Origin: Clostridia bacterium
GTDB taxonomy: Bacteria > Bacillota > Clostridia > Christensenellales > UBA1242
Direction of reading: 5' to 3'
Assembly (NCBI GenBank): GCA_050872785.1
Contig: JBNMHO010000001.1
Coordinates: 128,004-192,003, forward strand
DNA length: 64,000 nt
In this document: in pieces, positions 1,811 through 40,900 of the stretch
Numbering within the stretch: the first letter of the stretch is position 1
Layout of the letters: each line of letters begins with the position of its first letter
Translations under genes and position numbers: made by a program
The notes under the pieces: generated by a model
The model's input: only the letters and a program-made list of their open reading frames with translations
Database searches by the model: none
Told to the model about the DNA's origin: nothing

Positions 1811-1883
1811 ATGACAAAAACTGCTTGAACAGCAAGAAGAGCAAGGTATGTAAGTTTAGGGCGGTTGAAATAATGTTAATATT

Positions 1884-9010: not shown

Positions 9011-9934
9011 TTATTTATCCTTACATTCGATATTGTCTTTTTTATTATCCGACTTGTTTTCAAGGACATTTTTATTTTCAAGATTATCGGTCTTATTGTT
9101 ATCAAAGACAGTTTCAAATGATTTAAGTTTTGTTTTTCGCATAATTTTGCCCATTAAATTGCCCGAATGTTGTGGGGTGAGTTTGTAAGCAAAGTTTAGA
9201 AGTTTTGCGTCAAAGCCCAATATAACTCTGGCTTTTCTTTTTCTCATTGCTTTTACAATCTTCCTTGCCATTTTGTCTGCTGACATACTAATTTTATCTA
9301 CAAAGGATTTATCTTGAACACAAATTGTGTCACGAGAATTATCTTTTGAAGAAAATAAATTCGTTTTTGCAAAGCCCGGCATTATTGTCGCCACATAAAC
9401 TTTCCCCTTTAGTTCGCTGTGCAAAATTTCACTAAACGACCTAAGTGCAGCCTTGCTTGCTGAATAGACCGCTGTTCCTGGAATAATTCCGAGGCTAGCC
9501 GCACTTGAAATGTTTATAACTGCTGGTGTTTTTGACTTCATAAGAAGCGGCAGCAATATTCTCGTTGCATAGGTTGCAGAAAAAAAGTTTGTTGCAAAAA
9601 CTCGTTCATACAATTCGCTTGTTGTGCTTGAAAAGCGTTCAAAAGGTGGCATAGTGCCTGCACAATTTATTAAAATATCAATGTTTATCTTGTTTTTTAT
9701 AACAAAGTCCTTAAAGTCACACCAATTTTGTTCCTTTGACACGTCCATTGGATACGCCACAAATTCCCCGCTAAGAGATTTAACCTTTTCTTGTGTTTCA
9801 TGTAATTTCTCAACATTCCTTGCAAGCCCTACAATTTTGCAGTGATATTTTTGTGCCAAAATGTAGCACATCTCTCGCCCCAAGCCACTTGACGCTCCAG
9901 ATATTACAACTGTTTTTTCAAAAAGCCAATTCAT
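9011..9934 (-). CDS. Short-chain dehydrogenase/reductase (SDR) family oxidoreductase with a K/N/D-rich C-terminal tail
   Basis: 307-aa ORF with GGAGG RBS. It has the TGxxxGxG-type cofactor motif (VVISGASSGLGREM), NCAG, and catalytic YSASKAAL. Confidence 0.9.
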   Translation of the reverse strand: MNWLFEKTVVISGASSGLGREMCYILAQKYHCKIVGLARNVEKLHETQEKVKSLSGEFVAYPMDVSKEQNWCDFKDFVIKNKINIDILINCAGTMPPFERFSSTTSELYERVFATNFFSATYATRILLPLLMKSKTPAVINISSAASLGIIPGTAVYSASKAALRSFSEILHSELKGKVYVATIMPGFAKTNLFSSKDNSRDTICVQDKSFVDKISMSADKMARKIVKAMRKRKARVILGFDAKLLNFAYKLTPQHSGNLMGKIMRKTKLKSFETVFDNNKTDNLENKNVLENKSDNKKDNIECKDK

Positions 9935-10176
9935 ATTTCCTCCAATAAATAAATTTTAGCAGAAAATAAGATTTTTAACAATCATTTTAAACTTCCACTC
10001 AAAATTCAAAATATAAGCGAGCGTGAATTATTTTCGCTGTATCATTTTAAATTCTTGAATTTACTGAGTTTGTTAAAATTGCCGAGGCTACTCTGTTTCT
10101 AGATAATTGAGGACTTTTATATGGAAAGTAATAATATAATTACATATTCTAGTTATTTATTTGTATATTATGACTA

Positions 10177-10205
10177 TTGACAATGGGGGTTCTGTGGGTT
10201 ATCAT
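10177..10205 (+). promoter_or_regulatory. Sigma-A type promoter for the paralog operon (TTGACA-N17-TATCAT)
   Basis: Perfect -35 TTGACA at 10177-10182, a 17-nt spacer, and -10 TATCAT at 10200-10205. It sits 26 nt upstream of ATG 10231, with GAGGTGA as RBS. Confidence 0.55.
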
Positions 10206-10230
10206 AAACACATAAAAATGAGGTGAAAAA

Positions 10231-16907: not shown

Positions 16908-19900
16908 TTAAGCCTTAGGCCTGCCTAAATCAACCCAGAATTTCATACTTGCACTTGTCCCATACTTCTTAGTCTGAGATGCCCCACGACAGCAAAGCGA
17001 ACCGCTTGAACTGACACCTCTATTGCCATCCAAAGTATTTGTCGTGTTGTACCAAATTACATTTGTCTTTTGACAATTCACATCTCCGCCGAAACCAAGA
17101 ACTTCTTTACGTCTCCAAGTTACAGTAATGCCTCCACCGTCCTTAAATGTTATATTTTCACAAATGTAATCTTGATCATTATTGCATCTTATTCTTGAAA
17201 CTTTTTTGTGATCACTATGTCTGATCCAGTGTGCTGTGTTGTAGTGATTGCCCTTAAAGAGTATATGGCAATAGTAATAATTTTGCGACCCCTCATCCAG
17301 CGTTACTATTCTAGCATATTCGGCGTAATACTTCAAATAGGTTCGTGGATAAATGTTAACATTTCCAGTAATATGATCGGCAACGACAAGTGATAGGCTA
17401 AGATAACACGAACCAAGCCAAACTGAACCGTAGATGAAACCAGAGTTTTCCTTTATAATGCCAGCCCAAATGTTAATATCATACATATCAATTGATGACA
17501 CTTCCCCCGTAACATAAAGCGCAAAATTATTAGAGGATGTTTCTGATGTACCATTTGCACAAAGTTTGCTATTCCCCTTAATTGTAATTGTTGCATTGCC
17601 AAAGATATAAACCCCATTTGAAGTAGAACCACTATAATCCACATCATCATTAAATTTTTTGCTGTAATCGGTGCGTCCGCCCGTATTATTTGCAATCTGT
17701 GCGCCGTTTTCCATTGTTAAGGAGCCGCTGGCATTGAAGTATGCAGCACCGCCATGTAAAGTTGCTGTGTTGTTTAGAATTTTTGCACCAGTGCCACTCA
17801 TTGTAAGTTTTCTGTTGCTTTTGAAGTACACGCCGCCGCCATTTGCTTCTGTTTTGTTATTTTCAATGACGCCGCTTACTGTAAGGTCACCTATATCAAC
17901 ATACACACCACCACCATTATACTTTGCTGTGTTTTGAGTTTGAGATGACGAGCCAACAGAACCGCTTATTGTCCCGCCCGCTGCGAGATACAATGCACCG
18001 CCGTTTGTGGTTGCACGGTTGCCATAGGCTGTTCCGCTGAATGTTATGCCAGCTCCCGCATAGACTGCGCCGCCATTTGAGGCTTGAAGTCCACTAAGAG
18101 TGCCACCGATTGTTGAGCCACCCGCATTTGATGAGAGGCAAATTCCCCCACCGTCTTGTGCTACGGTTTTAATGTTTCCATTATTGTCTTTTGAGCCATA
18201 AATTTGCCCAGTGAATTCGAAACTTCTACCGGCGTAAATTCCGCCACCGTTGCCGTCTGTTGTGTTGCCTGCAAAGTAACTATAGACTGTGACTGAGGAG
18301 GAGCCATTTGCAATATACATTCCGCCGCCGCTTGAGGTTGCAGAGTTTTCTTGTATGGCATGGCTGCTGTCATTTCCAGTGAACTCCCATGTGACAGAGC
18401 CGTTGAGATACACACCGCCACCTTGGCTTGCTTTATTTCCATAGATTGAGTAAGCATTATTTGAACTATCGCTGACGCTGTCTTTCGCTGTGCCACCGTT
18501 CATATAAAGTCCGCCGCCGCCAACTTTTGCACCATTGTATTTGATGTATCCACCAATAAGATTGAATGTGCCACCATTTACATACACACCGCCGCCCTCA
18601 GTTGCATAGTTGTAACTGATTAGGCTACTTGCTTGCATTGTAAATGTGCCGCAATTGCCAACATACACACCGCCGCCTAGGTTTGCTTTGTTGGAGCAAT
18701 TTTCTTCCGTTGCAGCAGTTTTTGCTGTTACACCGATTGTGCCTTGCGTCATATTGAAACTTCCGCCACCAACATACACCGCACCGCCGTTTACAATAGA
18801 AGTCGAGCCGTCATATTGATATTTGTGTCTTATCATTGTGCCGCCATTGAAGTTTGTAGTGCCACCATTTGTTGCAACTGCACCACCGTTTTTGGCTTTG
18901 TTGTTTTCGAAGTTGGCTGCAATATTCACCGTGCCGCCCGACACATAGATTGCCCCACCGTTTCCGCCACGAGCCGAATTTTGTGTGAAGGTGACTTTGG
19001 TAGAGTCATAGATTTCGACCGTTCCGCCAGTTACCGCCAAAGCACCGCCATTCACCGAGTAGTTGTCGTTGAACTTAATTTCTGAAGATATGGAACTATC
19101 TGCACTGCTGATAGCCACATTTCCACCGCCAACTGCAATCGCACCACCCATTTGAGTTGAACCAGTGTTGGTGTAGTTCACTGCAAGAGTTCCGTCATTA
19201 AATCTCTTACCGAACAAGCCTGCGTAAATTGTTGTTGTGCCAATTGTGTAAATTGCTCCGCCCATATTGTTTGCTTTGTTGGATACAAAGATTACACCTG
19301 TGCCAGTTGCTCCAGTGTAGGTTGACTCTTTTTTACTTAGAATTCTAAGTGTGCCAGTTGTGTAGATTGCACCACCTTTGTCGCTTGCTGCATTGTTTTT
19401 GAATAAGATTGCATTTGCAAAGGTGTCGTGCTTTGAGTTGACTTTTCCCTCGCTCACGTATTGTGCTGCATTGTCGCCGCTTTCAAGTTTTACTGTGCCG
19501 TGGTTTGCAATGCCGCCACCATTTGGAGCGAAGTTGTATATCACTACTCCGCCGTTTAGGCTGAGGGTTCCGCCGTCTGCAACATATATGCCGCCGCCCT
19601 CACTGCCCGCAGAGTTGCCCGCCCCACGATTGTCGTTGATGTAATAGTAAGAAACCCCGTCTTGCACTTTCCCATAAGAGTTGTAGGATATTCCTCTCTT
19701 TTGAGATGTAACTCCCACACTTCCCGCTGTTGCAATCTCTTTATAGGCTTCATTGAGGAACTTTTCTGCACCGATAATTCCGTTTGCAATTTCAAGAGTT
19801 GCGCCCTTAGCCACATAAATTCCGCCGCCATAAACTGAAGCGTCATTGTAGCTTATTTGTGCGTCACTTAATATAACTGTGTTGCCGCCTATGAACAATG

Positions 19901-22900
19901 CACCGCCATTTTCTGCAATGTTATTTATGATTTTTGCTGAAAGAGCAATAGGGTTTGCATTGACCTCTGATGTGCCGACCAAATAAACCCCGCCGCCGTT
20001 TGTGGCTTCATTGTATGAGATTTCGCCGCTTATCAATTGAACATTGCACACATCAACAAATGAAAGTTCTGCATACACACCACCACCGTTTGCTGCATTG
20101 TTGCCGTGACTTGTAAGTTCTTTAATAAGATTTGTTTCATTTTGATTGTATTTGAGTTCTGCTCCGCCAATTATTGCACCACTGCCGTTCATTGTGAAGT
20201 GACCGCTTGCTGAAACAAACACGCCGCCGCCTTTGTCTGTTGCAATGTTGTTTGAAACTTCGCCGCCGGTCATTGTGAATGTGCCACTCATAACACAAAC
20301 ACCACCACCATTTGCTGCTTTATTGCCACCTATTGTGCCGCCAGTCATTGTAAATGTGCCACCCGCAACACAAACACCACCGCCGTTGTAACCTTTGACT
20401 TCTTCATCGTTTTTCCCTGTATTTGAGCCAGTGATTGAGCCAGCTTCAAGTGTAAGAGTTGATGATGTAAGTGAGCCACTGCCTGAACCGTTATCGTAAA
20501 GATATACACCGCCGCCGTTTTGGGCATTGTTGCCAGAGAGCGTTGCACCACTTATCGTGACTGCCGAGCCGCTGATGTAAAGTCCACCGCCGTTTGTGGC
20601 GTCGTTGCTGGAAATTGTTACATTCGAGCCAAGGGTAAGTTGGTTTGCGTCAGTGTATATTTTTGAATTTTCAATGCACAAGCCGCCACCGTTTGTGGCT
20701 GTGTTATTTGTAATTGTAACATTGCCGTCAAATGCGACTCTGCCGCCTGCTGTGAGATAAATTCCACCGCCGTAAGTTGCACTGTTGCTTGAAATTTGAA
20801 CGCCGCCATTAAGCACCACTTCACCGCCTGCAACATACAATCCGCCGCCGTTTCCAGTTGCTGTGTTTGAAACTATATTTGTTTCAAGTATCAAAGTGCC
20901 GCCTGCGACATGCACACCACCACCGTTTGTCGCTTTGTTGTTATCCGACAATTTGACAAAACTTGGAATAGTCAATGTGCCGTTTGCAAGGTAAATTGCC
21001 CCGCCGTTTGCTGCACTGTTGCCAGTAAGAGTGACCGTGCTTATTGTATTTGATGTGCCGAATGTTACATTTGCTCCGTCAACATACAATGCGCCGCCGT
21101 TACCTTTTGCAGTGTTGCCCGTAATAGACGAGCCATTGATATTAAGTTTTGTATTGCTGCCCACTGCTTTGATTGTTGTGTCTGTGACTGTGTTACTTGA
21201 TATTGTGACATCTGTTAGTGTTACATTTGTTTGATTGCCGTCAGTGGAATTCAAGTTGAAGATTGTTTCCGTGTCGCCGTCAGAGCCGCTGATAGTTGTG
21301 TTTGAGATATTAACTGTTGCTCCCGCCGTTGCCAAAACAATGTTTTTCGCTTTGACGTTACTTATTGTGCAGCCGCTGAGGGTTAAACTTGCGTTTTTCA
21401 CGTCAAAGAGATTGTTTGAAGTTGAGATGTTTTGGGCTGTTACATTCTTTGCCGTCAAACTTCCGCCAGTGAGTGTTGCAACTGAGATGTTGTTGCTGCC
21501 GTCTGAAGGGCCTATTGTAACATTTTCCATTGTAACACTGCCCGATAACACTTGAAGAACTGAGGACGTAGAGCCTATGATATTTACATTTTGAAGCACC
21601 AATTCGCCAGACGCCACTGCAAGCCATTGTTGTGACGAAAGTTCAAGTTTGACTGTGTATGTTGTGTCAGTGAATTTGTATTCACTTTCACCCAATTCAT
21701 TTTCACCCAATTCACATTCCGCCGACTTGATTGTAACTTTGTTTGAACTAAGGCTTGAAGTTGCGGACGTTGAAACATTGTTTTTAATTATATACACAAC
21801 ATATTTGTATTCTGAGCCCTTACCTGTTGCGGCAGAAATTGCACTGCTCATACTTTGATAGAACCTGCCACCGCTCTCATTTTCTCTTTGCACATAGAAG
21901 TTTCTTTCTGCAATGATAATGTCATGACCAGTAATTCCGCCCAAGATAAAGCAGTAAATGTTTCCGTCTGGGTCTTTCCCTTCAAAAATGTCTTCCAAAA
22001 TATAATCAGGTTTTGAAATATTTACATTGTTTGAATAAGAGCCAACTGTTGTATTATATTCTGTTGATTTGGCAGGGCTTGTAATCTTGATTTTTTGATT
22101 GTTATGGTTATAAGCCTTGTCAATTCTTATCTTCGCAAGTGAGCCTGCTGCACGTTCCAGATAAATTGAGTCGTTAATCTTGATATTTCCCGACAAATAT
22201 TCATCGTCTTTCCCTGCATTGAAAGTCATTGCAACATTGCTTGCTTGCTCGCTAAGATAAATGCCGTCACCATATTTTGCAGTGTTTGCCTTAGTCAAGT
22301 CTTCACTGTCACCTAACTTTAACATGCGAACTTCAATTTGAGATGAAGTGCTATCTGCGCCATAATTTACATAAATTGCTCCGCCTTTGCCAGTTTCAAG
22401 ATTTGCCGAGTTTTTGAACATTTTAAGATAACTTTCATCTGTTCCCTCAAAGCGTCCCATAGCGTCACTGAAGTAAATTCCGCCGCCGTCTGTTGCATTG
22501 TTTGATGAAATTTCTCCACCAGAGAATGTTGCTGCTGCTTTTGTTACATTGATGTCATTTGTAAACAATGTTGTAAGTTGCTCTGCTTTAGTTTCATCTT
22601 TTGATTTAATTTCAGCATATTTCAAACCATTTAGGAATATTCCGCCACCGTTGCCAGTTGCTGTGTTTCCAGAGATTGTTCCGCCGGACATTGTTATGTA
22701 AGTTTTATAATATGTCACTGTTGTTTTTACAGTTTCTTCACCAGCAGTTTCACCGTTTGAATTGTTGGCTAGGGTTACTTCTTTGCCGTTTACATAAACA
22801 CCGCCGCCGTCTTTGGCTTCGTTCATGGATATTTCACCGCCAGAGATATTTACATTGCACAAGATGTTTGCATACAGTCCGCCGCCATAAGTTGCGTAAC

Positions 22901-25900
22901 TTCCAGAGATTTTTCCGCCGCTTATTGTGACCGTTGACCAAATTTCCTCATTGTTTTGCTTTGACCCCGTTGCATAAATTGCACCGCCGTATTCTGCTGC
23001 ACCATTTGAAATGCCGCCCCCAGTCATTGTGAACGAAGAATTTTCAATATATACAATTCCGCCACGAAGTCCACTTTTTATGTCTGAAACAGAGGTCGCC
23101 TCGCCTTTAAGTTCTGCACCAGAGATAATGACTTCTGAACCATTCTTTGCAAGAACAATGCTTCCCTCTTGTGTTGAAGATTTGCCAGTTATAACAACAT
23201 TGTTACTCAACGTGAGTGTTGCACCGTTAACTTCAAAGACACGTCCGTCAAACTGCGAATCGGAATATACAACAATGTTCAATGTGCCGCAACCTTCGTA
23301 ACCGCCATACACTGCGTCAAAGTCGCCGTCATAGCCAATGGTTGTTGTTTGTGTAACTGCAAAACCGTTTCTGCATTTTTGATTGAACGTAACCTCGCCT
23401 TTTGCCGATAGAACAATGTTTGAAGAATTGAAGTTAATAGTATCTGTGATGTCATACTCTCCAGCGTTTGCGAGAACGAGATATTTTGAGTAGCCTTCGT
23501 CAAGTATAACAAGGTCTGCCAAAGCGCCGTCTAGTGTTTCACTTTCCGCATAAAGAATATTCCTATCAGATTTTTTGCCATAAACTTGGAAATTCTGCGC
23601 TCTTAAGACAGCACGGTCACCATTATCATTATCTACAACTGCTTTAAGTCCAAAGCCAGAGTTAATATCCAAGTTGAAGTAGTCGAGGTAGTTGAAACCA
23701 GCGGTTATGTCATCTGGCTTAAATTGCAAAATCTTATCTTCAACACTGAACTTGCCTGCTTCCAAATAGACATTTATTCTCTTCATATCTTTTTTGGTCA
23801 AATTTTGTGAAACATTCCTTGTGCTTCTGAAAAGTTTTGTCTTCGCTTCGTCTTTGTCAGCGGTCTTTATACTTACAAATGACTTATTTGTCAAAATGTA
23901 AATTCCGTCAGAAATGTCATCAATTTCGCCAGATAGAACAATACCTGTCTTAACGTCAAGTTCAGATTCTGCAGGCTTACTTTGTGTTGTGTCGGAAATT
24001 GCAATGGTTGCATTTTCGCCGTTTGAGATTGTGTTTGCGTTTTCGCCGTCTGCAATATCCAAAACACCACCCGCAACGGAAAGCCCCGCACCGATTGAAG
24101 AACCGTCTTGAAGACTATTGCCAGTGATTGTTGTCCCCTTGAGGGTTGTTGTGCCGCCAAAGGTGTAAATTGCACCGCCGCTTGCTTTGCTTGCTGCCGA
24201 GTTGCCAGTTATTTGAATTCCCACAAGTTCAACATTTCCGCCCGCAACATAAACTGCACCGCCAACGCCATTTGATGTGTTCTTCGAGAATGTTTCATTT
24301 CCGTCAGTATTTGTTCTGCTGTCGCTAACTTTTGTTATGCCGTCAAACACTGCCAATGCTCCGCCACGACTTTCTGCTGTATTTTTCTCTATGCTGCTGT
24401 TCATAATTTCCAAAGAACCATATGACACAATCGCACCACCAACAGTTGCATTGTTGCCGCTAAGGACGGAAGAACCTTTGATTGTCATTGCTCCATTTTC
24501 TGCAACATACACACCGCCACCGTTTGTGGCGCTATTGCCAGTTATTTTACAAGCGTCATCAATTTCCACCTTGCCGCTTGCAACATAAATTGCACCGCCA
24601 TTTATAGCTTTGCCGCTGTCAGAATTGCCGTTTTTATCAAATTTTGTTGAAGTTTTTATCAATGCGTTGCCAGATGAACCAAAGCCAAAGTAGCAAGCAC
24701 CGCCGTTTTCTGAAGCATAATTCGTTCTAAATGTTGCAGTTATCATTGTAACTTTTGCAGCCCCTTCAGCATACAATGCCCCGCCCATTCTTGCCGAGTT
24801 GCTTTCAAACAAGTTCTTCTCGCCAGTTTCGTTTGCTGTGCTGATATCAGTAATCTTGTTCAAGTTCAAACTTCCGTTTGCAACATAAATTGCACCGCCA
24901 TATCCGTTTGTGGAATTTGAAATGAAGTTTGTAAATTTGATTTCATGTCCTTCTCTGGAATTTAGATAAAGTGCGCCACCGTGAGCCACCTCTGTGCTGG
25001 AGGTTGCTCTGTTTTCACTAAATGTCACATCGCTTGTTACAAGTTTACCTTGTTTTTCAACTGCCACAGCACCACCTTGTTGTGCCGAGCAATTTGAAAT
25101 TGTGGAGTCACTAATATACAATTCCCCGCTGCCGCTCGTGTAGATTGCACCACCCATTGAAGATGAGCCAGCAGTTAATGTGGAATTTGAAATTGTAACA
25201 GTTCCACCCGCTTGATAAATCATTCCGCCATTGCCCGTGGCCGAGCAATTTTCGAATGTAGAACTATCAATAACAACATTTCCATCTTTAAGCCAAATTG
25301 CACCGCCATAACTTAAAACTGATTTGTCAAGATTTTCGTCTTTTACAGAAATCATGTTATCAAGATAAAGTTGGTCTGCTTTGGAATTTCTGATTGTCGT
25401 TCCGTTTGAAAGTTTGAGTGTGCCACTTGCAACATAGAACATGCTTGCACTTACGCTGCTGCTGTTTTTGCTGCCTTCCAAAATCATTGGATGACAAACT
25501 TTGCCGTCATTAAGTTTTAAGTCGTTATTTTTTAGGAAGTCGTCACTTAAACTTGTAAATTCCAAACTTCCTTTCACAACAAACATAAAGTCTTGATAGC
25601 CGCTTTCTCTCAAAACAACTGCCCCGTCTGCTGTTTCTCTGCAATCGACAAGAACGATGTCCTTGTTTGCTGCGACTTTAACTGTGTTTTGAGAATTTAT
25701 AACTTGTCTGCGGAAAAGCCCGAAGTAAGTTCTCTCGTTTTCTTTTGCTTGTTCAATAGCATCATTTATTGAAGCGAACATTTTGTATTTGCCATTTTCG
25801 TCCGCTTTAAGCGCACGGATAATTCCCGCCATGGCGTAAATATCTTTATCTCGCTTTGTGAAAACGATAATGTCCGAATCAAACTTGCCCGCCCCTGCAA

Positions 25901-31900: not shown

Positions 31901-34900
31901 CTATTGCAATTCCGCCGCCATAGGTCGCAGAGTTGTTTTTGATAACTGCTCCAGAAATTACAATGTTGCCGTTTGAAAGCCCTGCTTGGCTGTCGCCGTC
32001 ATAATACACGCCGCCGCCATAGCCTGTCGCCACGTTGCTCAAAATTTCTGTCCCTTCGCCAATTACTGCTCTGCCGCAGTTTTCTGCAAAATACAACCCA
32101 GCACCATTTGTTGCATTGTTTTCTCTGACTTCTGTGTTTGTCATTTCAAAAGTGCCACTTCCGCCAAAGTAAACGCCAGCACCATTTGTCCCTTTGTTGT
32201 TTGAAATTGTGCCGCCAGTTGCAAGGAATGAGTTGTTTTCAACATAAATTCCGCCGCCATAAGTTGCATGGTTATCCGTTATTGTTGTTCCGTCAGCTAT
32301 TTCAATGCCACCCACTGCATAAACACCGCCGCCATTTTCTGTTGCCTCGTTTGAAGAAATTATAGCACCAGATAAAACAAGTTTGCCCACAGCATACACG
32401 CCAGCACCATTTGTCCCTTTGTTGTTTTGGACAAACACGCCGCCACCCAGTGTAAGTGTTCCGCTTGCGACATAAATTGCACTTTCACTTGACAAAACTT
32501 GTGATTTGCTGCCGTCAAAGATAATGTTTTCTACTTCAATATCTCCCGCGAATTCAAACATGTGACCAGTAAAGCCACTGCCTCGTGTAAATTGAGTTTG
32601 ATAAATTGAGGTTATAGAAATATTGCTATTAAATTTGTAAGTCTTCGATACGTCAATTCTTTCGCTTACGAATGATAGCACATCGCCCGCAACAGTTCTT
32701 GCTGTGCCGTCAAGCGAGAACAATGCCTTGCTGTCATCGGACTCAAATGTTGTAAAGTAAATTCTATTTACTCCGTCTTCTGCCGAGGCGTCCTGTCTAT
32801 CCACATAAGCCACAACCTCTTCCCAGTAACATTCAAAGACTAGGGTTGTTGCTTCTTCAATGTTATATGCTCTTGAAACAGCTCTTTTTGTGTCGCTTGA
32901 CTTTCTGCCCACATAAACATAACTTATTGCGCAGTTATATTTTGTGAAGTCTTTTGCCATTTCTTTGAAACTAAATCTCAAGTCGCCTTGTTTTAATGTA
33001 TATTTCCAGCCAGCAACTGTGTTGCCGTTTTCTGTTTCTTCAAATCTTTCTGCCTGAGAGAAGTTGCTTGATTGTGTTTCATTTGCTTCGCCTTCGCCAG
33101 CATAAACTTTAATCTCCACAATATTTGGCTCCCAACAAGCAACAAAGACTATTGTATTTTTGTCTGCATAGGTGCCTTTGTCTGTTAGGTGTCCACGGCA
33201 AATGGCAGTGTAGGCGTCAAACCATGTGTAATTTGTATCCCCAACATATTCGCCATATTCGTCAAGAATTCTATCAAATTTAAGTGGAGAGTTTGCAATG
33301 TTAAATGTTGACATTCCATTTGGGTCTGCCTTAACAAACACACCCGTTCTTATAACATTCAAACTGCCAAGAGTTTCTGCACCCGCAGTGTTTGCTTCGA
33401 CCAAATATCCAAGTTCCCACCTGTCAAAGTGATGATAAACCATTGGGTTTGAGATAAGTTCTTTTGCGTTGAGTGTTGCGTCTTGATTTACACTGACTTC
33501 TGCAACCTTTGCAAAAGAAGTAGAAAGTCGTCCAGTCTGTTTGTCTGCTTTTTGATAAACAATGTTAACTTGGAAGTTCACTTCTTTCCACTGTGCTTGA
33601 ATTACAAGAGTTTCCACTGGGAAGTTGGTCACAGTTCTATTCCAAGTTCTGCCAGAATAGTCGGAATCTGTTGTTAAAGTTGTGAAGTTTTCAAGCAAAC
33701 TCCAGCCGAATTCTTTGCCCAAAATGTTATCAAGGAACGAAAAGTCTGTCTTCCCCACAAGTGAGATATTAAACTGACCATTTATTTCTTCGCCTTCATA
33801 AACAACAGTTTTGCCATTTGTGTCAATGGTTATGCTTTCTGCAATTTTGCCCACGAGCAAGTAGTTATCTCTGCCATACAAGCAATAGCCCGAAAGCCCC
33901 TCAAGAGTAAACATATTCATGCCAGTTTGTCTTTGTGACCTGTCGCCAAATTCTGCCACAATCCAATTTGCAAGCAAGGCTTCTTCTGTCATAACTGTTC
34001 CCGTCTTGTCGCTTGCAGTGACGATTGCAATATTTTGCACGCCAGAAATAGCCTTTTCGACAGATATTCTAGCATTATTAAATAGATAAATCTTAGCGCC
34101 AAAGTAGCCGCTTGTTATGTCTGACAAGATGTTTAGTCCAGTTTTATCATTTCCGCCAACAAATATGCCGCCATAAACATTTGCACTTGAGGCATTAACT
34201 ACGCCGCCATTTTCGATGTAAATTGAGTATGGATAACTATCTGTGTTTACTGTTCCGACCGTGCCACCTTTAAGTGTAACAACGCCGTTTGCAGCAACAT
34301 AAATTTCAGAGCCAAGTGGAGTTACTTTGTCATAAGTGCCACTTGTGTCGCCCGCTTTGTTGTCTGTAACTGTGCCAAAGAGCAAAACGACTTCTTTTGT
34401 GGAAGCAATATACAAACCGCCGCCAAAGCCCGCTGTGTTGTTTGTGATAACAAAATTCTTCTTATTTATGACGTCAATAGAGCCATTGTCGCCAACATAA
34501 ATTGCACCGCCGTTGTTTGTGACTTGGTTGTTTGAAAGAGTGATTGGGTCAGTTTGTGTTGAGCCAAAGAAATTGAATTTTGCATTGCCCAAAACCGCAA
34601 CTGCACCGCCGTTTCTTGCCTTGTTATTTGACACAGAAACACCAAGATTTAAGGCACCATTTTCGCCCACGGCAAATGCCCCACCATAAGTTGTGCTGAT
34701 GTTGGTGTTGCCATTTTTAATGTAATATCCGTTCTTTTCAAATTTTGCTTCGCCACCAATGGAAACGCTTGCACTTCCGCCAACATAAATTGCACCGCCA
34801 TAAGTTGTTTCACCCGTTTTTGAAGTTGTGTAGTTGCCAGTAAACACGCCGCCAGTTATTCTTCCGCCGTCAGTGTTTTCTGAACCTGAGTTTGTTCCCT

Positions 34901-37900
34901 TTGAAATAGCAACCGCTCCGCCGTAGTTTTCAGAGAAGTTATTTTCAAATGTTCCGCCAGAGATGTCAACTCGGCCGTCACAACTTACTGCTCCGCCTTG
35001 CGCTTTGACTGTTGCGCCTTGATTTATTGCAGAGTTAGATGTAAACATTCCGCTTGAAATGCTTAAATTTCCTTTTGCGAAAACTGCACCACCAACTGTT
35101 GCAGAGTTTGAGGTGAATACAATGTCACTATTTGAAATTGTAACAGAGTTTGCGCTATACACTGCCCCGCCATACAAAGTTGCTGAGTTTGAAGTGAAAG
35201 TCATTTGACTTGAAAGAGTAACGCTGTCTTCAAAGTAAATTGCACCGCCGTTGCCGCTTGCAGAGTTCGTTGTGAATGTTACATTGTCAAATGAAACTAC
35301 AGCCCCGCTTGCAACATACATTGCACCGCCATTTGTTGCAATAGAATTTGTGAAAGTTGCACCGCTGACACTAACTGTAGCCCCGCTTGCAACATACATC
35401 GCTCCGCCCATATTTGCACTAAGATTGCCACGTGAGCCAAATGTTGTGCCGACTATATTAACATTGCTGCCCGCCGCTGCATAGACCGCACCGCCGCTCT
35501 CGGTTGCTGTAAGGTTGTTAAGTGCAAATGCTCCAAGAGTAACCGTGCCTTGGGCATAAATTGCTGCACCCGAAGTTGCTGTGTTGTCGGACAAAACAAG
35601 TCCGTCTTTTGCAACAAATATTCCACCCGTGGAAACTTTTATAAGCGAGTCGGAAGATGTTTGTTTGCCTTTTATGGACAATAGAGTTGTATCACTTGAC
35701 GAAGTTACGTTGCCAAGTGTAAGACTTCCGCCAGAAAGAATGTTGAACATATTGCCCGTCAAACTTTCGCTTGCGGAGATTGCGTAACTGCTGTTTGACA
35801 CAACAAGAATATTCTTTGAAACACTAATTGTGTTTGCCACTTCGCAGTTGTCTATAAGAACAACTTTATATTGTCCGTCAACATTTCTAACGACACCCGC
35901 TTCAATGTCTTCAAATGCTTTTTCAAGAGAGAGATAGTAAACATTTTTTCTCTCAGTTCCGAATGTTGCCCCGTTTTCTACATAGCAAGTTGCCTTGTTC
36001 CAAATTGCATAAAGTGTAAAGTCTTCTTTCATTGTGACTTCTACAACTTCCCCTGGCATGAAGTCTGGTTCTGTTGCAAGTGGGTCAAAAGCAAAGCCCG
36101 CTAGTAGATAATCTTTTCTTGCAAAGAACACTTCTTCGTCACCATAAGTCACAGAGTTTGTGGCAGTTGGAAGTGTAAACTTTTCGCCAACATATTTGTC
36201 AAATTCCGCTTTAACTGTGCCAGCGTTTGTGCTATCGGTGTAGTTGTTCCTTAAAGTTACAGTTTTGCTAATTGGGCTGAAACGTATTTCAAAAACAATA
36301 TTTCTTCCGCTGACTGTGTCAACACCCGCTGTTGTCATATCGAATGTTGCTCCAGCAGAATATTTCTTGCCGTTAAAGACAAAACTTTCAAATCTGAAGC
36401 CGTCTGGTCTGTTGACTGCACGAAGTGTCCAAGTTTCGCCGTTTATGATAAATGAATATTTCCCGTTTTGCTCTGCAACGTCAAATTGTTGTTCGCCAAC
36501 TGCAATCTTCTTTGGATAGAAATAATCATTTTCAGCAAATGTTTCCCCTTCGCCCGTTGCAACTGGAGAAATTTTGCCAAATGCTTCTTCGTCAAATCTA
36601 ACAAAAGCAGTTTTTCTTGTTGGCTCGACATAATATGTTGTGCCGTTTGCGACAAAGAAATAAAGCCTTTGTTGTTCGTTGTATTCTAGTCTGTTTGTTT
36701 CCGAGTTGCCTCTTACATATTTGTTGCCTTCAAACACAACAGAAGCAACTGACGCTCCGTCATAATTAACTTCAGAAAGCGTTACAATCTTAACTGCTTC
36801 CAGTTTGTTAATTTCGTCAAGAGTTGGAAGTTGCACTTGTCCAAAGTCGCCGCCCGTCAAATTGAAACTAATTCTGTAGTCTGACGCTGGCACACCGCCC
36901 ACTTCATAGGACAAAATATTTCTTCCACCGAAGATGTTGTCATATTTGTAACTTATTGTATATTTTGCTGGCTTCCAAACTGCATAAAGGAAGATGTCGC
37001 ACGCAATATATTTTTCTTGAGTTTCAAACCAGTCGTTTTGTGCTTCTTCAAGTGTTCTGTCATAATGCAATGCGAAGTTAAACATTCCCGAATATTCGCC
37101 ACCTGCATTTTGCATTTCTTGATAAATATCAACAAAGTTATCTGGCTCAAGGCGGTCGCTTGTTATTATGCTATAATAAGCCCAGCCGACAAATTCATAG
37201 TCGAATTTTCTTGGCACTCTTGCTTCAATTTGTTCAATTACGCCACTCGATTTTACATCAGCATTATACTTAAATTTAATTTCCGATTCTTCAAAATTAT
37301 CTTGAGATAGGTCGCACAGGTGAAGTGTGTAATCTTGGAAGTAAAGCACGAGTTTTGTTTCTGTGTCATGCTTTGCAAAAAGATAATTTGTCGTGTCGCC
37401 TGGGACAAAAATCTCCTCAAGATTTTCCCATTTTGCCGTTGAATATTGTTGATAATCTACAACAGTAAGACCCAGTTGAGCGGTTAAGTTCTCTGTGTCA
37501 CGCTCGAAGGATATAGCAAGATTTTTGCCGCCATTTGTAAAGTATTCATAATCAGAACTTGAAACAAGTCTGGCTCTGACTGTAAGAGGGGTAAATGTTT
37601 CGGTCATTCCCTCAGATTTAACATATTTTACAAAGAATTGTTCCAATGTTCCAAAGTTATTTTCGCCAAGGATAACGAATGTTGCTCCGTTGTAGATTGT
37701 TGCACTGGAATATGTTGAAGCAATGTCTTTCTTTTTGTTATTGTCTGTTGTTATTCCTTGAACGGTCACTGACCCCAAGTTATAAATTGTTGCAAATTCT
37801 TGTGCGGTGTTGTCATAGATATTTCCGCCTTGCCATGTAACTTCGCCCGACGCTGTTACATACATAACACCCGCCACTTGAGCTTCGTTCCCAGAAGCAT

Positions 37901-40900
37901 TGACTAGGCAAGGAATGTCTGCTGGAAGTGACTCCTCAAGGTTAAATTGCAAGTTGTCTTTGAGCATGTAATATTTTGTAGGCTCGCTGTCGTCTGTTGA
38001 AGTGACTGAGTAATAATATTTGTCATAATGTTCCGTTGCAGAAGTTATTGTGTCTCCCTTTCTATTGACGTAATTTCCGTCTGAACCCATTGCTTGCAAA
38101 TAGATAGGCACACCAGTTGATTCGCCGTCTTCATCAACTTCATAATAGTCAACAAATTTGTCGTCTGACGTTTTGTCAATATGATAACCCATCTTTGTTC
38201 TTAAGACGCCGTTTACATATTCCCACCTTTTTGCGAATGTTGAAACATTTTGCATTTCGCACTTGCCAGCGATGTGGAATGCTCCGCCATAATTTGCTTC
38301 GTTTCCATACAATTTAACATTTTCAAGACGCAAAAGTCCAGTGTTCAAGTTTATGCCGCCGCCATATGTTTCTGCGTCATCTGAGATTGCTAAGTTATTT
38401 GTTATGAATGCATATCTTATTGTGCTTGCACTGCTTGGCGAGCCAGAAATATAGACACCTGCACCTAAGAGGGCTTTGTTACCATTGATATTTGTCCATT
38501 CTGTTTCATTTTTTGGAGTGAAACTTATGTTGCTGTTTATGGCAATTCTTGCTAGGTCAAGAACACAAATGCCGCCACCCGTTTGGGCTGTGTTTTGAGT
38601 AAAGGACGATTGTGAAATATTTACAAGCACATCACTTCCACTTGCAACAAGTCCGCCACCAAATTCGTCTGCAGTGTTTCCGTCAAAGGAACAATTTGTC
38701 AAACTGTGAGCAACACTTGAAATGCCACCATAAATTGCCATTGCCCCGCCAGATTTTGCCGAGTTGCCGCCAGTGAACTGAGCGTTTGTGGTGGTTATCA
38801 AACTTTGAGTTCCGACATACACGCCGCCGCCGAAGTTGCTTGCAGTGTTTGCAACATAGGAAGCATTGCTAAGTCTAAGTTCAGATTTTTCAATATAAAT
38901 TGCCCCGCCATGCCCGTAGGTTGCTTTGTTTTGATTAAATCTTGCAAGAGAGTTTTCTCTGCCAGCGATTGTATTTGTTTCTTCAACACAATTTCTAAGA
39001 GCAATAGCACCGCCAATTTTTGCAGTGTTGTTTGTCCATTCCAAGTCACGAGTTGTGCTTGAGATGTCAAGTTTTACGCTTTCGGCATAAATTGCACCGC
39101 CATATGTGTTAGCAAGGTTCCCTGTGAAAATTCCGCCATGGAGTGAAAGATTTCCGCCAAGCATTGCAATGGCACCGCCAAGACCTTCTGTTCCCGAAAC
39201 AGAGCAGCCAGTGAATGTTGCGTAGTCAATATTGATTATTGAACTATCTGCATAGATTGCACCACCCATTGCTTGAGAGGAAGTATATGTGTTTTTGCAG
39301 TCATTAAAGGCCACGTTGTCGATGTTGACTGTTGCGTGTGCTGCATTTATCACGCTGCCATATTGCGTGGAAGAATTTGTTATGCCCGAGAACACAACAT
39401 TGTCTTTTATGTCAATATTTCCGCCATTAGTTAAAATCAAAACATCTTTTGCATTTCTTGAATTTTGTTCGACAAAAGTAAGGCTATTTAAATCACCGCC
39501 CATTAGGACCAAACTGCCAGACACGTTGAACATATTGCCAGTGAGTCCGCTTGCACGATAAATTGTAACATTGCTTGAAGCAAGTTTGAGAGTAAGTTTT
39601 TGGTCTTCAAGAATATTTAATGTTTGTCCAATAGTCAAAGTTGTTTCATTTGGCTGCACAACAACCATAACTCCGTCAGCGGAAGTTGAATGGCTTGCAG
39701 CGTTTGGTGCTTTGTCATTCAAAGCGTCTTGCAACGCCATATCCAAACTTGCATAATATTTGTGGAAGCCTGTGCTGTAATAATCTTTTATGTATGCACA
39801 AGCACTTGCCCAAACAACTTCAAATTCAACAATTTCGCTGTCAATTTTCATACTTAATGGGGTTTCTTTTCTTTCACCTTTATACAGATAATATGAAACA
39901 TACTTCCCGTCAAGATAGATATCGTCAAAACTTGGCATTGTATATTGTGAGCCAATGGTGTATGATGTGTCGTCTTGAAGATAAGCCGTGTCATCTTCTT
40001 TTACAAGTTTATAATTTTCAGAACCGATGTATCTTGCATTTATATTGCCAAGATTTATTTTAATGGTTGCCACATTGCTTTGCCACACGGCATAAACTTC
40101 TATTGTAACGCCGTCAATTATTGCATTTACAACGTCACTTAGGTCAGCCCCTTCGGATAACACAAAGTTATATCCCAAGTCATATTGTTTTGTGAGGTTA
40201 TTTTTAAGTTTTATAACATATCCAACATGATTGTATTCTGCCCTTTTCCAAGATGTAGTTTGTGGGAATTCAACAGTTTCGCCATAAGTTGCATTGACGA
40301 CTATTGCGCCGCCATAAGTTTGTGACGAGCCCATAGCATTGCTGTTAAATCTTATTGTATAAGCATATGGCTTCCAAATTGCAAAGAATGTTATATTTTC
40401 GTTTGCAAGATTTGAAACAGTTACATTTGGAGAGGCAAAAGTTGGGCGATACAAATCGCTATCGCTTCCGCCACCAGTGACATAGTCGTCATAATCTACA
40501 AAGTTGCTTGACCAGCCAAGGAAAATGTAACCCTTCTTAAATGGGCCAAGGTCACTTTGGGTCGTTTGATTTTTTGCAGTTGGCAAAGTTACAGAATAAC
40601 TATCTCCATTTGCTTCAAGATTTTTTGCTGCAATTTCTGTTGCACTAGAGCCATAAATTCCGCCGTTTAGGTCGAAATATGCTTTTGCTTGTGACCAAAT
40701 TGCATAAACCGTGAACACATCTCTCTTGTCAATTTCAAAGTCTTTCAAGCAATAGTTAACTGTTGAGTTTTCGTCTTCCCAGCCGCCGAAAGTTCCTGTT
40801 CCAGTTGCTGTTACAAGTTTTAGGTCGCTTGCTTTTATTTTTTGACCGAATTTAACTCTAACTGCAATCTTCCCGTCATATTCCGTTTGAGTGCCGCCGA

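What the first reader, a model, noticed from the sequence alone, without database searches (positions are those of the whole stretch)
17460..39800. Seven beta-helix cassettes share a cap-repeat-tail layout; three alternate with Flg_new linkers and four are fused head to tail
Seen: each GGAIY/FxxN-rich block opens with a similar short element, a beta-strand followed by a [YF]xS[LI]xxA[LI]-type helix. The seven openings are: YYASLDMALQDAL (~39750), YYLSLEKAFEDI (~35930), RIYFTTFESDDSKALFSL (~32760), EFTSLNEALSQC (~27980), MFASINDAIEQA (~25780), YAESETLDGALADL (~23540) and FYQSMSSAISAA (~21860). Each block closes with a non-repeat tail of similar character, e.g. KIYIVMEEELGDNAQIKVATF..., QKIIKILIDEANYPSSETGRVEIGSY..., QKIKITSPAKSTEYNTTVGSY.... 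Cassettes 1-3 are separated by Flg_new-type segments. Cassettes 4-7 (28030 down to 17460, about 10.5 kb) abut directly. Inference: the gene grew by duplicating a whole supermodule, not single repeats, giving a segmented rod. Cassette number may differ between strains.
Basis: partly seen in the sequence, partly recalled or inferred. Interest (0 to 1): 0.7.

Follow-up and report, generated by a model that had tools for sequence, protein, structure and literature searches.

The report
Giant adhesin with seven capped beta-helices
One 10,967-residue, membrane-anchored surface protein of an uncultured gut Clostridia bacterium carries seven separately capped beta-helix domains in a fixed, anciently conserved order; it is a well-built but ordinary example of the giant adhesin-like proteins already known from gut microbes.

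Summary
The region lies inside a single 32.9-kb ORF (window 16908-49811, minus strand). Its parts are an N-terminal Q/N-rich segment, one TM helix, about 3,000 aa of Flg_new-like repeats, then seven GGxIY/FxxN blocks.

All seven "openings" are at the stated coordinates. They are homologous in register: 13 of 21 profile-profile pairs reach E<1e-3, and the reversed control gives p=5e-7. A cap HMM finds exactly seven. AlphaFold2 predicts strand-helix-strand caps on a confident beta-solenoid, and Foldseek matches only right-handed beta-helix proteins.

The "tails" are real beta-rich closures, but their similarity to one another is barely above chance. The linkers are only sub-threshold Flg_new. 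L2 gives no signal at all, and L3 also holds a BspA-type LRR domain.

Duplication, if that is how the cassettes arose, is ancient. There are no long DNA repeats and cassettes are 21-33% identical. Cassette order and size are conserved in four other metagenomic lineages at 83%, 68-84%, 48% and 26-28% identity. No copy-number variation was seen.

Multi-beta-helix adhesin-like proteins with N-terminal helix caps, and giant Clostridia proteins with Flg_new, LRR and ShdA-like domains, are already described.

The parts
16908..49811 (-). Single ORF of 10,967 aa (stop codon 16908-16910): the giant surface protein that contains the whole finding
   Evidence: ORF list and translation without internal stops. 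Collinear orthologs occur in four other metagenomic lineages.
49047..49811 (-). N-terminal Q/N/P-rich low-complexity segment, aa 1-255; presumed cytoplasmic
   Evidence: Read from the sequence. No family match.
48972..49046 (-). Single hydrophobic span, aa 256-280 (LTVIISAVVACVLMLSLGLGLLLGG), flanked by lysines; presumed signal-anchor
   Evidence: Read from the sequence. Topology is inferred, not computed.
39792..48944 (-). About 3,000 aa of divergent Flg_new-like repeats (aa ~290-3340); the proposed stalk
   Evidence: Pfam Flg_new at 61.4 bits for aa 931-1000. The recurrent G[WF]...LYAxW end motif is present.
37335..39785 (-). Cassette C1, aa 3343-4159. Cap aa 3343-3443 (39483-39785). Tail aa 4097-4159 (37335-37523). 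Holds a ~105-aa non-solenoid insert at aa 3870-3975.
   Evidence: Motif block. Cap HMM 51.9 bits. TIGR01376 POMP_repeat 34 bits, above the cut-off of 15.
35961..37334 (-). Linker L1, aa 4160-4617; two or more Flg_new-like units
   Evidence: hhalign against the Pfam-verified Flg_new stretch gives E 2.4e-3 and 4.7e-4. TIGR02543 scores 12.3 bits, below cut-off. The ortholog L1 scores Pfam Flg_new 17.4 bits.
33846..35960 (-). Cassette C2, aa 4618-5322. Cap aa 4618-4706 (35694-35960). Tail aa 5240-5322 (33846-34094).
   Evidence: Chlam_PMP 70 bits. Cap HMM 60.7 bits. Leave-one-out score 23.4 bits.
32790..33845 (-). Linker L2, aa 5323-5674; three units ending in h-x-h-x-C/A-x-W. Fold not established.
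   Evidence: No Pfam or NCBIfam Flg_new signal. hhalign E 0.075-0.25.
31377..32789 (-). Cassette C3, aa 5675-6145; the shortest. Cap aa 5675-5769 (32505-32789). Tail aa 6067-6145 (31377-31613).
   Evidence: 11 GGxIY motifs. 40-43% identity to parts of C4 and C7. Cap HMM 48.2 bits. PMP models are below cut-off.
28026..31376 (-). Linker L3, aa 6146-7262: about seven Flg_new-like units, then a BspA-type leucine-rich repeat domain (aa ~6900-7200; window ~28212-29114)
   Evidence: LRR_5 68.7 bits. TIGR02543 20.6 bits against a cut-off of 20.95. The ortholog L3 scores Pfam Flg_new 24.6 bits. hhalign E 6e-4 to 6e-3 for 6 of 7 units.
25824..28025 (-). Cassette C4, aa 7263-7996. Cap aa 7263-7347 (27771-28025). 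Tail aa 7924-7996 (25824-26042).
   Evidence: Pfam Beta_helix 44.4 bits and Chlam_PMP 32.3 bits. The AF2 model has pLDDT>90 over aa 7260-7880 and is an all-beta solenoid with a cap helix. Foldseek hits are all right-handed beta-helix proteins.
23595..25823 (-). Cassette C5, aa 7997-8739. Cap aa 7999-8092 (25536-25817). Tail aa 8636-8739 (23595-23906).
   Evidence: Chlam_PMP 55.2 bits. The AF2 junction model places the cap helix at aa 8015-8021 with pLDDT 80-95. Cap HMM 68.9 bits.
21903..23594 (-). Cassette C6, aa 8740-9303; it has the most divergent cap. Cap aa 8741-8836 (23304-23591). Tail aa 9215-9303 (21903-22169).
   Evidence: TIGR01376 20.5 bits, above the cut-off of 15. The cap profile matches C2 (E 3.9e-4) and C4 (E 4e-5). 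It is not recovered by the leave-one-out HMM.
17211..21902 (-). Cassette C7, aa 9304-10867: one long solenoid of about 46 rungs with no internal cap. Cap aa 9304-9400 (21612-21902). Tail aa 10796-10867 (17211-17426).
   Evidence: 44 motifs at a median spacing of 26 aa. Chlam_PMP 38.8 bits. No eighth cap match. This is the fastest-diverging part against L081.
16911..17210 (-). C-terminal ~100 aa rich in C/W/Y/H (aa 10868-10967); an orphan and the proposed distal tip
   Evidence: No homolog found for aa 10700-10967. No family. 85-90% identical in L081 but only 24-34% in L082.

Best explanation
The finding is the distal two-thirds of one giant protein of an uncultured gut Clostridia bacterium. 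The protein resembles a fibrillar adhesin.

Proposed layout:
- It is held in the membrane by a single N-terminal hydrophobic span. This is inferred.
- It projects a stalk of divergent Flg_new-like domains.
- It then carries seven autonomous right-handed parallel beta-helix domains built from PMP-type GGxIY/FxxN rungs. This is shown for C4 and for the start of C5 by structure prediction, and for the others by homology.

Proposed mechanism (inferred):
- Each solenoid opens with a conserved strand-helix-strand N-terminal cap and closes with a beta-rich C-terminal closure.
- The caps seal the open edges of each solenoid. Neighbouring solenoids in the same chain can then fold independently and do not run into one another or aggregate. 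This is the role established for alpha-helical caps of pectate-lyase-type beta-helices.
- In C4-C7 the closure of one unit leads straight into the cap of the next. This gives a four-unit block that is conserved as a block down to 28% identity.
- The membrane-distal end (C7 plus an aromatic/Cys-rich C-terminal tip) evolves fastest. It is the most likely ligand-contacting or immune/phage-exposed part.

Origin: the seven units probably arose by duplication of a whole capped unit. That happened before the known lineages of this family diverged, and the number is now fixed.
For: - Single ORF with a TM span after a Q/N-rich N-terminus.
- Seven motif blocks. Curated PMP-repeat thresholds are passed by six of the seven: C2, C4, C5, C7 with Pfam and C1, C6 with NCBIfam. 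Beta_helix is passed in C4.
- The AF2 model of C4 has pLDDT>90 over 620 residues and is an all-beta solenoid with an N-terminal helix. Foldseek PDB hits are exclusively right-handed beta-helix proteins: tailspikes, PL6 lyases, Rhombotarget A, pertactin and Ag43.
- The caps are homologous in register, and exactly seven are found.
- The junction model has mean pLDDT 83 and pTM 0.78. Tail strands lead directly into the next cap helix.
- The architecture is conserved in four other lineages, with synteny to recR, VTT and DUF1846 in L081, L082 and L085.
- Divergence rises toward the distal end while the flanking genes stay at 92-94%. L085 shows the same trend.
- Sister caps are closer to each other than to 64 outside caps.
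- Literature: Flg_new is a stalk domain of fibrillar adhesins (PMC9210967). PMP motifs form the coils of a beta-helix (PMC11166332). Multi-RBH adhesin-like proteins and the conserved N-terminal helix cap that prevents aggregation are described in PMC11532034, citing Bryan et al. 2011.
Against: - No binding, localisation or expression data exist. The adhesin role rests on analogy.
- Foldseek E-values are weak (best 6e-4, TM 0.15-0.3), as is usual for long solenoids.
- Only C4 and the C4/C5 junction were modelled.
- Tail similarity between cassettes is statistically marginal, so a common 'tail module' is not established.
- The Flg_new identity of the linkers is sub-threshold, and L2 gives no signal.
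- Membrane topology and secretion route were not computed.
- Cassette bodies are no closer to sister cassettes than to outside proteins. Internal duplication therefore rests on the caps alone.
- Orthologous genes are interrupted in other assemblies, which leaves open whether the protein is always made as one chain.
Confidence: 0.65

Rival explanations
1. The cassettes form a currently expanding and contracting array. Whole cap-repeat-tail units would be gained and lost by recombination between strains, giving rods of variable length.
For: The units share a layout and homologous caps. Short GGAIY-codon repeats recur throughout the gene and could in principle seed recombination.
Against: There are no long DNA repeats, and the short ones are only 60-80% identical. 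Cassettes are 21-33% identical. Five lineages spanning 83% to 26% identity have the same cassettes in the same order with nearly the same lengths. Examples are 3120 against 3132 aa, 4816 against 4887 aa, 2533 against 2532 aa, and 730/650/566/1370 against 738/743/563/~1560 aa.
Confidence: 0.05
2. The beta-helix cassettes are enzymes, not adhesive or structural modules. The protein would be an array of polysaccharide lyases or hydrolases displayed on a stalk to degrade host or dietary glycans.
For: Foldseek matches include PL6 alginate lyases, phage tailspike depolymerases, GH55 and pectate lyases. The organism's relatives live in ruminant and other guts.
Against: No lyase or hydrolase family is hit by Pfam or NCBIfam in any cassette. 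The rungs are PMP-type GGxIY/FxxN repeats, known from non-enzymatic chlamydial adhesin passengers (PMC11166332, PMC2997323). The fold matches are weak and generic to the fold. No conserved catalytic residues were looked for.
Confidence: 0.12
3. The protein is a contact-dependent delivery filament like CdiA or other polymorphic toxins. The beta-helices would form the shaft and the variable orphan C-terminal domain would be a toxin.
For: The extreme C-terminus has no homologs. It is much more diverged than the rest in L082 (24-34% against about 48%) and differs in P0121 and P0122.
Against: There is no TPS, FHA, PT-VENN or other pre-toxin motif and no toxin family hit. The gene immediately downstream is recR in the window, L081, L082 and L085, so there is no immunity-gene candidate. 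The organism is a monoderm-type Clostridia relative with an N-terminal membrane anchor, not a two-partner secretion substrate. The C-terminus is 85-90% conserved between the two closest strains, which is more than the adjacent C7.
Confidence: 0.05
4. The long ORF is an assembly artefact, for example a chimera of several repeat-containing genes collapsed into one reading frame.
For: Repeat-rich genes are prone to misassembly. Orthologous contigs show frame breaks.
Against: The 32.9-kb frame has no stop. Independent assemblies from at least five samples are collinear with it over 3-7 thousand residues each, including every cassette junction seen. The repeats are too diverged at the DNA level to collapse.
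Confidence: 0.03

Closest known systems
Archaeal adhesin-like proteins (ALPs) of Methanobrevibacter smithii and Methanosphaera stadtmanae with several right-handed beta-helix (RBH) domains (PMC11532034)
   Same: They are cell-surface proteins carrying several RBH domains in one chain. One M. smithii ALP is reported with seven. RBH units run up to about 1,200 aa. A conserved N-terminal alpha-helix cap is noted. They come from a gut habitat.
   Different: They are from a different domain of life and no sequence relationship was shown here. The present protein is about 5-10 times longer, combines the RBH units with Flg_new-like and BspA-LRR domains, and has four RBH units fused head to tail.
Chlamydial polymorphic membrane proteins (Pmp; Pfam PF02415, TIGR01376)
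   Same: The same GGA[ILV]/FxxN rung motif forms the coils of a parallel beta-helix (PMC11166332, PMC10715098). The Pmps have an adhesin function (PMC2997323). Curated repeat models are passed by six of the seven cassettes.
   Different: Pmps are type V autotransporters with a C-terminal beta-barrel and one passenger helix. Here there is no autotransporter domain, the anchor is N-terminal, the organism is a Clostridia relative, and there are seven separately capped helices.
Fibrillar adhesins with Flg_new stalks (PMC8286594, PMC9210967), and giant (10,000-30,000 aa) Clostridia proteins from mammalian gut metagenomes with Listeria-Bacteroides repeats, LRRs and ShdA-like adhesin domains (bioRxiv 10.1101/2023.11.21.568195)
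   Same: The domain vocabulary is the same (Flg_new, LRR, PMP/ShdA-type beta-helix). So are the size class, the taxon, the habitat and the stalk-plus-distal-module logic.
   Different: Those surveys list domains. They do not describe the cap-rungs-closure unit, the fixed seven-unit order or the fused four-unit block. No LPXTG or other C-terminal anchor is present here.
Pectate-lyase-type right-handed beta-helices with N-terminal alpha-helix caps (Bryan et al. 2011 PNAS, as cited in PMC11532034; Pfam Beta_helix PF13229)
   Same: An amphipathic helix packs over the first rung (predicted). The motif [YF]x[ST][LI]xxA[LI]xxA followed by a short strand is also the consensus of 64 outside homologs.
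   Different: Classical examples are single-domain enzymes. Here the cap recurs seven times inside one chain, four times directly after the preceding helix's closure.

Membership tests
Right-handed parallel beta-helix (pectin-lyase fold; Pfam Beta_helix PF13229) | Sequence match to the family model above the curated cut-off | tested here: met
   PF13229 scores 44.4 bits against a cut-off of 25.9, with four stretches. The best lies in C4, aa ~7583-7743. Only C4 passes. The other cassettes pass PMP-repeat models instead.
Right-handed parallel beta-helix (pectin-lyase fold; Pfam Beta_helix PF13229) | Three-stranded solenoid fold | tested here: met
   The AF2 model of C4 has pLDDT>90 over aa 7260-7880 and shows short strands with about 26-aa periodicity. 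All Foldseek PDB hits are RBH proteins, but with weak scores (best E 6e-4).
Right-handed parallel beta-helix (pectin-lyase fold; Pfam Beta_helix PF13229) | N-terminal alpha-helical cap over the first rung | tested here: met
   A helix is predicted at aa 7277-7282 (C4) and aa 8015-8021 (C5). The other five caps are homologous in register. Packing on the rung was not inspected.
Chlamydia-type polymorphic membrane protein repeats (PF02415 / TIGR01376) | GGA[ILV] and FxxN repeat models above the curated cut-off | tested here: met
   Pfam: C2 70 bits, C4 32.3, C5 55.2, C7 38.8, against a cut-off of 20.6. NCBIfam: C1 34 bits and C6 20.5, against a cut-off of 15. C3 is below cut-off in both.
Pmp / type V autotransporter proteins | C-terminal autotransporter beta-barrel and export across an outer membrane | tested here: not met
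   No autotransporter domain appears in any Pfam or NCBIfam scan of C7 or the C-terminus. The C-terminal 268 aa have no homolog. The protein is therefore not a Pmp family member. It only shares the rung repeat.
Flg_new / Listeria-Bacteroides repeat (PF09479, TIGR02543), for linkers L1-L3 | Match above the curated cut-off in the linker segments | tested here: not met
   - Window L1, L2 and L3: no Pfam Flg_new at E<=1.
- TIGR02543: 20.6 bits in L3 (cut-off 20.95), 12.3 bits in L1, none in L2.
- Ortholog linkers with Pfam: 24.6 bits (L3) and 17.4 bits (L1), against a cut-off of 27.
- hhalign against the verified stretch: E 5e-4 to 6e-3 for 8 of 11 units.

Conclusion: L1 and L3 are probably divergent relatives. 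L2 is unassigned.
Flg_new / Listeria-Bacteroides repeat, for the N-terminal stalk | Match above the curated cut-off | tested here: met
   PF09479 scores 61.4 bits at aa 931-1000. Only one stretch passes. The rest of aa 290-3340 is assigned by the recurring end motif only.
BspA-type leucine-rich repeat (PF13306 LRR_5) | Match above the curated cut-off | tested here: met
   68.7 bits against a cut-off of 27.7 at aa ~7085-7198. The ortholog scores 100.7 bits.
Fibrillar adhesin (sensu Monzon & Bateman) | Repeated stalk domains plus a cell anchor | tested here: inconclusive
   Stalk-type repeats are present. An N-terminal hydrophobic span was read from the sequence. No LPXTG or other known anchor motif was seen, and no topology predictor was run.
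Fibrillar adhesin (sensu Monzon & Bateman) | Demonstrated or family-assigned adhesive domain; surface location | not testable with these tools
   This needs binding assays, proteomics or microscopy.

The most novel reading that the evidence does not exclude
The closure-plus-cap junction may be a dedicated rigid coupler. It would stack consecutive beta-helices into one continuous, mechanically stiff segmented rod. Counting ~136 motif-bearing rungs at an assumed ~4.8 Å per rung gives roughly 65 nm of solenoid, on top of a Flg_new stalk. The conserved four-unit block C4-C7 could then act as a separable module. In one lineage this block is encoded as its own ORF, in two independent assemblies. Its fast-evolving distal tip would set binding specificity. 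If so, this would be a previously undescribed way of building very long rigid surface fibres from capped solenoids. The C4/C5 junction sequence is found in only 3 of 1.84 billion representative proteins.
Probability: 0.2. Interest if true: 0.55.

Novelty: new member of a known kind. Interest (0 to 1): 0.35.

Why it matters
The work gives a clean, ortholog-backed dissection of one of the very large surface proteins of uncultured gut Clostridia, a class that is usually left unannotated. It shows that the beta-helix part is not an amorphous repeat tract. It is seven discrete, individually capped domains whose number and order have been fixed since before lineages now only ~26-28% identical diverged, while the membrane-distal end evolves fastest.

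That gives practical domain boundaries for expression and structure work. It also supplies a usable cap profile for segmenting similar giants. Finally, it points to the distal C7 and C-terminal tip as the place to look for ligand specificity. It does not reveal a new kind of system.

Tried and rejected
1. Orthologs via the C-terminal 268 aa with the search for homologous proteins gave no hits.
2. An exact-match look-up of RecR found nothing on record.
3. A GTDB scan with RecR to see the 3' end of the gene in relatives found a best identity of only 62-63% (uncultured Clostridia from ruminant guts). None has a beta-helix giant next to recR.
4. The search for homologous proteins with C4 returned only proteins of 1,304 aa or less, at 35% identity or less. 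Giant relatives are invisible to it.
5. An iterative HMM seeded on the one Pfam-verified Flg_new stretch did not spread to other repeats.
6. An HMM built from outside caps hit caps and ordinary rungs alike, so it was not discriminating.
7. Automatic ortholog-segment mapping by BLAST picked paralogous cassettes. I replaced it with curated anchors.
8. Tail homology was tested four ways: pairwise shuffles, two leave-one-out HMMs, and hhalign. It stayed marginal. I therefore rejected the idea of a conserved 'tail module'.
10. Foldseek on the junction model gave only weak generic beta-helix hits.
11. I considered and rejected an autotransporter/Pmp membership (no barrel), a CdiA-like toxin filament (no motifs, and recR lies downstream), and an assembly chimera (independent collinear contigs).

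Full report
**What is there**

The finding lies inside one uninterrupted ORF on the minus strand, window 16908..49811, 10,967 aa. Positions convert as nt = 49811 - 3(aa-1).

The protein's parts, in order:
- A Q/N/P-rich low-complexity N-terminus, aa 1-255.
- A single hydrophobic span, aa 256-280, flanked by lysines.
- About 3,000 aa of repeats ending in G[WF]...LYAxW. One of these passes Pfam Flg_new (61.4 bits, aa 931-1000).
- Seven discrete blocks rich in GGxIY motifs.
- A C/W/Y/H-rich C-terminus of about 100 aa.

The neighbours are housekeeping genes. recR lies 76 nt downstream, and DUF1846, a VTT-domain protein, Tex and ABC transporters are nearby. The closest RecR proteins in GTDB are only 62-63% identical. 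They come from uncultured Clostridia MAGs of ruminant and other guts.

**Checking the observation**

I defined the units as follows:

| Unit | Residues (aa) |
|---|---|
| C1 | 3343-4159 |
| L1 | 4160-4617 |
| C2 | 4618-5322 |
| L2 | 5323-5674 |
| C3 | 5675-6145 |
| L3 | 6146-7262 |
| C4 | 7263-7996 |
| C5 | 7997-8739 |
| C6 | 8740-9303 |
| C7 | 9304-10867 |

Curated PMP-repeat models are passed by six of the seven cassettes:
- Pfam Chlam_PMP is passed by C2, C4, C5 and C7.
- NCBIfam POMP_repeat is passed by C1 and C6.
- C3 passes neither. It has 11 motifs at 25-aa spacing and is 40-43% identical to stretches of C4 and C7.
- Pfam Beta_helix is passed within C4.

**Caps**

- Raw pairwise Smith-Waterman scores against shuffles give z>3 for 8 of 21 pairs.
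- Leave-one-out HMMs place the omitted cap as the best non-training hit in the whole 10,967-aa protein for C1 (18.8 bits), C2 (23.4), C3, C5 and C7. C4 comes second and C6 is missed.
- After I recovered orthologs (see below), I built a small profile for each cap and compared them with hhalign. 13 of 21 pairs have E<1e-3, and most start at the same column in both profiles.
- Every cap, including C6 and C7, is linked to at least two others. Mean score is 25.8 against 12.1 for reversed-sequence controls (Wilcoxon p=5e-7).
- An HMM of all caps finds seven full-length matches (48-69 bits) and nothing else above 4.1 bits. There is therefore no eighth cap, and C7 is one long solenoid.
- The same element (strand, [YF]x[ST][LI]xxA[LI]xxA helix, short strand) is the consensus of 64 outside beta-helix proteins. 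It is a general feature of this domain class, not a peculiarity of this gene.

**Tails**

Each block does end in a non-GGxIY stretch of 60-105 aa with alternating hydrophobic residues. When the three fused junctions of several orthologs are aligned together, a common pattern appears..I.L...a.I.I.. / ..I.I.. / ..V[AG].[YF].. / ..F..D.. / ..F.L..G.DI.I...

Statistically this is weak:
- Only 1 of 21 raw pairs has z>3.
- Leave-one-out HMMs recover at most three tails, at about 0-5 bits.
- hhalign gives only C3-C4 (E 0.004) and C4-C6 (E 0.006).
- The overall score is barely above the reversed control (p=0.04).

I therefore accept 'a beta-rich closure of similar character' but not a demonstrably homologous tail module.

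**Linkers**

C1, C2, C3 and C4 are separated by linkers. C4-C7 abut with 0-5 residues between closure and next cap.

The 'Flg_new' label is only partly supported:
- Pfam finds nothing in the window's linkers at E<=1.
- TIGR02543 scores 20.6 bits in L3 (cut-off 20.95) and 12.3 bits in L1. It finds nothing in L2.
- Orthologous linkers reach 24.6 bits (L3) and 17.4 bits (L1) with Pfam, against a cut-off of 27.
- Small profiles of 8 of 11 linker units match the protein's verified Flg_new stretch at E 5e-4 to 6e-3, with reversed controls at 0.1 or worse. The L2 units do not match.

**Structure**

The first AlphaFold2 model covers aa 7240-8130 and used 69 sequences.
- It gives pLDDT>90 from aa 7260 to about 7880.
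- It has short strands with about 26-aa periodicity.
- It opens with strand-strand-helix(aa 7277-7282)-strand.
- The tail was less confident and the C5 cap was unmodelled, because the alignment had no coverage there.
- Foldseek against the PDB returned only right-handed parallel beta-helix proteins: Sf6 and HK620 tailspikes, PL6 lyases, Rhombotarget A, AlgE4, pertactin and Ag43. Scores are weak (best E 6e-4, TM 0.15-0.3).

The second model covers the C4/C5 junction, aa 7799-8301. It used an alignment of orthologous and paralogous junctions.
- It reached mean pLDDT 83 and pTM 0.78.
- The closure forms strands at aa 7924-27, 7931-35, 7947-51, 7960-66, 7982-87, 7990-95 and 7998-8000.
- These are followed by the C5 cap helix at aa 8015-8021.
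- The high pTM for a two-unit fragment suggests a defined relative orientation.
- Foldseek on this model gave only weak generic beta-helix hits.

**Orthologs and the duplication question**

A metagenome scan with the C4-closure/C5-cap region found two contigs:
- L081 is collinear with aa 7836-10967. It is 83% identical and has 3120 against 3132 aa.
- L082 is collinear with aa 6000-10886. It is 48% identical and has 4816 against 4887 aa.

An exhaustive HMMER search of 1.84 billion representatives with the same junction found only three proteins:
- P0121 is collinear with aa 7009-10829 at 68% identity. Its contig L085 also encodes aa 4252-6987 at 84%, has the same C2 and C3 caps, and shows recR/VTT/DUF1846 synteny.
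- P0122 is 3,333 aa long. It has four caps at positions 18, 748, 1398 and 1964, giving unit lengths of 730/650/566/1370. It is collinear with C4-C7 at about 28% identity.
- P0123 is a fragment.

On contigs L083 and L084, from two different samples, P0122 is preceded by a 7,138-aa ORF that overlaps it by 17 nt. The last 3,338 residues of that ORF are collinear with aa 3975-7259 at 26% identity. They include the C1 closure, L1, C2, L2, C3, L3 and LRR_5.

So all cassettes from the C1 closure to C7 are present in the same order in a lineage only 26-28% identical. In no lineage does the number or order of the cassettes seen differ.

Evidence on how the cassettes arose:
- At the DNA level the gene has only 40-62-nt GGAIY-codon repeats at 60-80% identity.
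- Cassette bodies are 21-33% identical, and are no closer to each other than to outside proteins.
- For C1, C2, C3, C5 and C7 the best sister cap outscores all 64 outside caps. For C4, only P0003, a probable ortholog fragment, scores higher.

My reading is that whole-unit duplication within this gene lineage is the likeliest origin, that it is ancient, and that the array is now fixed. The strain-variation prediction is not supported.

**How it most likely works**

*Shown:* one ORF; seven capped PMP-type beta-helix units; the conserved architecture; a divergence gradient. Against L081, nucleotide identity is 95-97% at the C4/C5 junction, falls to 77-85% in distal C7, and returns to 92-94% in recR and beyond. 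L085 shows the same trend.

*Inferred:*
- The N-terminal span anchors the protein in the membrane.
- The Flg_new-like repeats form a stalk, as in fibrillar adhesins (PMC9210967).
- The capped solenoids form stiff distal segments.
- The caps and closures seal solenoid edges so that adjacent units fold independently and do not aggregate. This is the role proposed for beta-helix caps by Bryan et al. 2011, as cited in PMC11532034.
- The fast-evolving distal C7 plus the orphan C-terminal tip contacts ligands or is under immune or phage pressure.

Rivals are an enzyme array, a CdiA-like toxin filament, a variable contingency array and an assembly artefact. All are less well supported. Their evidence is set out in the rival explanations.

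**Comparison with what is known**

- PMP motifs as beta-helix coils are described for Chlamydia (PMC11166332, PMC10715098). This protein lacks the defining autotransporter barrel, so it is not a Pmp.
- Archaeal gut adhesin-like proteins carry several RBH domains, one with seven, and the conserved N-terminal helix cap is noted there (PMC11532034).
- Giant 10,000-30,000-aa Clostridia proteins from mammalian gut metagenomes, with Listeria-Bacteroides repeats, LRRs and ShdA-like adhesin domains, have been reported (bioRxiv 10.1101/2023.11.21.568195).
- What is added here is the unit-level anatomy, the fused four-unit block, its deep conservation and the distal divergence gradient.

I classify it as a new member of a known kind. 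Interest is 0.35.

Noticed in passing
window 17,400-26,300 versus L081; giant aa 4252-10829 versus L085: There is a divergence gradient along the gene. Nucleotide identity to L081 is 95-97% at the C4/C5 junction, falls to 77-85% in distal C7, and returns to 92-94% in recR and the flank. L085 is 84% identical (aa) over C2-L3 but 68% over C4-C7. The membrane-distal part evolves faster than the housekeeping flank.
   Followed up: partly
L083 9,980-10,030 and L084; L085 ~616 and ~8,292-8,349: The orthologous gene is interrupted in other assemblies. In L083 and L084 (two samples) a +1 shift splits it into 7,138 aa and 3,333 aa, exactly between the LRR_5 domain and the C4 cap strand (VVVDD|MIAVFD). 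L085 has two frame breaks. These may be real splits, programmed frameshifts or assembly errors.
   Followed up: partly
window 16911-17426: The C-terminal ~100-170 aa are rich in Cys, Trp, Tyr and His. They have no detectable homolog and no family. They are 85-90% identical in L081 but only 24-34% in L082, and differ in P0121 and P0122. This could be the distal tip domain.
   Followed up: partly
window 49047-49811: A 255-aa N-terminal segment is made almost only of N, Q, P, G and short motifs (NGQ.., QNxQ). It precedes the single hydrophobic span. This is an unusually long presumed cytoplasmic low-complexity head for a surface protein.
   Followed up: no
window 37887-38204 (aa 3870-3975, inside C1): C1 contains a ~105-aa stretch without rung motifs (KRWEYVNGVLRTKMGYHIDKTSDDKF...). 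It interrupts the solenoid before three or four further rungs, and may be an inserted domain or long loop.
   Followed up: no
window 28212-29114 (aa ~6900-7200, end of L3): A BspA-type leucine-rich repeat domain (LRR_5, 68.7 bits) sits directly before C4. It is conserved in L083 (100.7 bits), in P0121 and in P0003.
   Followed up: yes
window 10231-11679 and 11694-13502 (+): Two adjacent ORFs of 482 and 602 aa have no Pfam family. They are conserved in the same position in L085 as genes of 476 and 599 aa, also without Pfam hits.
   Followed up: no
window 2062-6321 (-): A 1,419-aa ORF has only a weak, sub-threshold Colicin_V hit at its N-terminus (23.8 bits, cut-off 29.3). It is otherwise unassigned.
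   Followed up: no
method note: The word-indexed protein search listed no hit longer than 1,304 aa, so it could not see relatives of the giant protein. These were found only by the metagenome DNA scan and the exhaustive representative search. The C4/C5 junction sequence occurs in just 3 of 1.84 billion representative proteins.
   Followed up: yes
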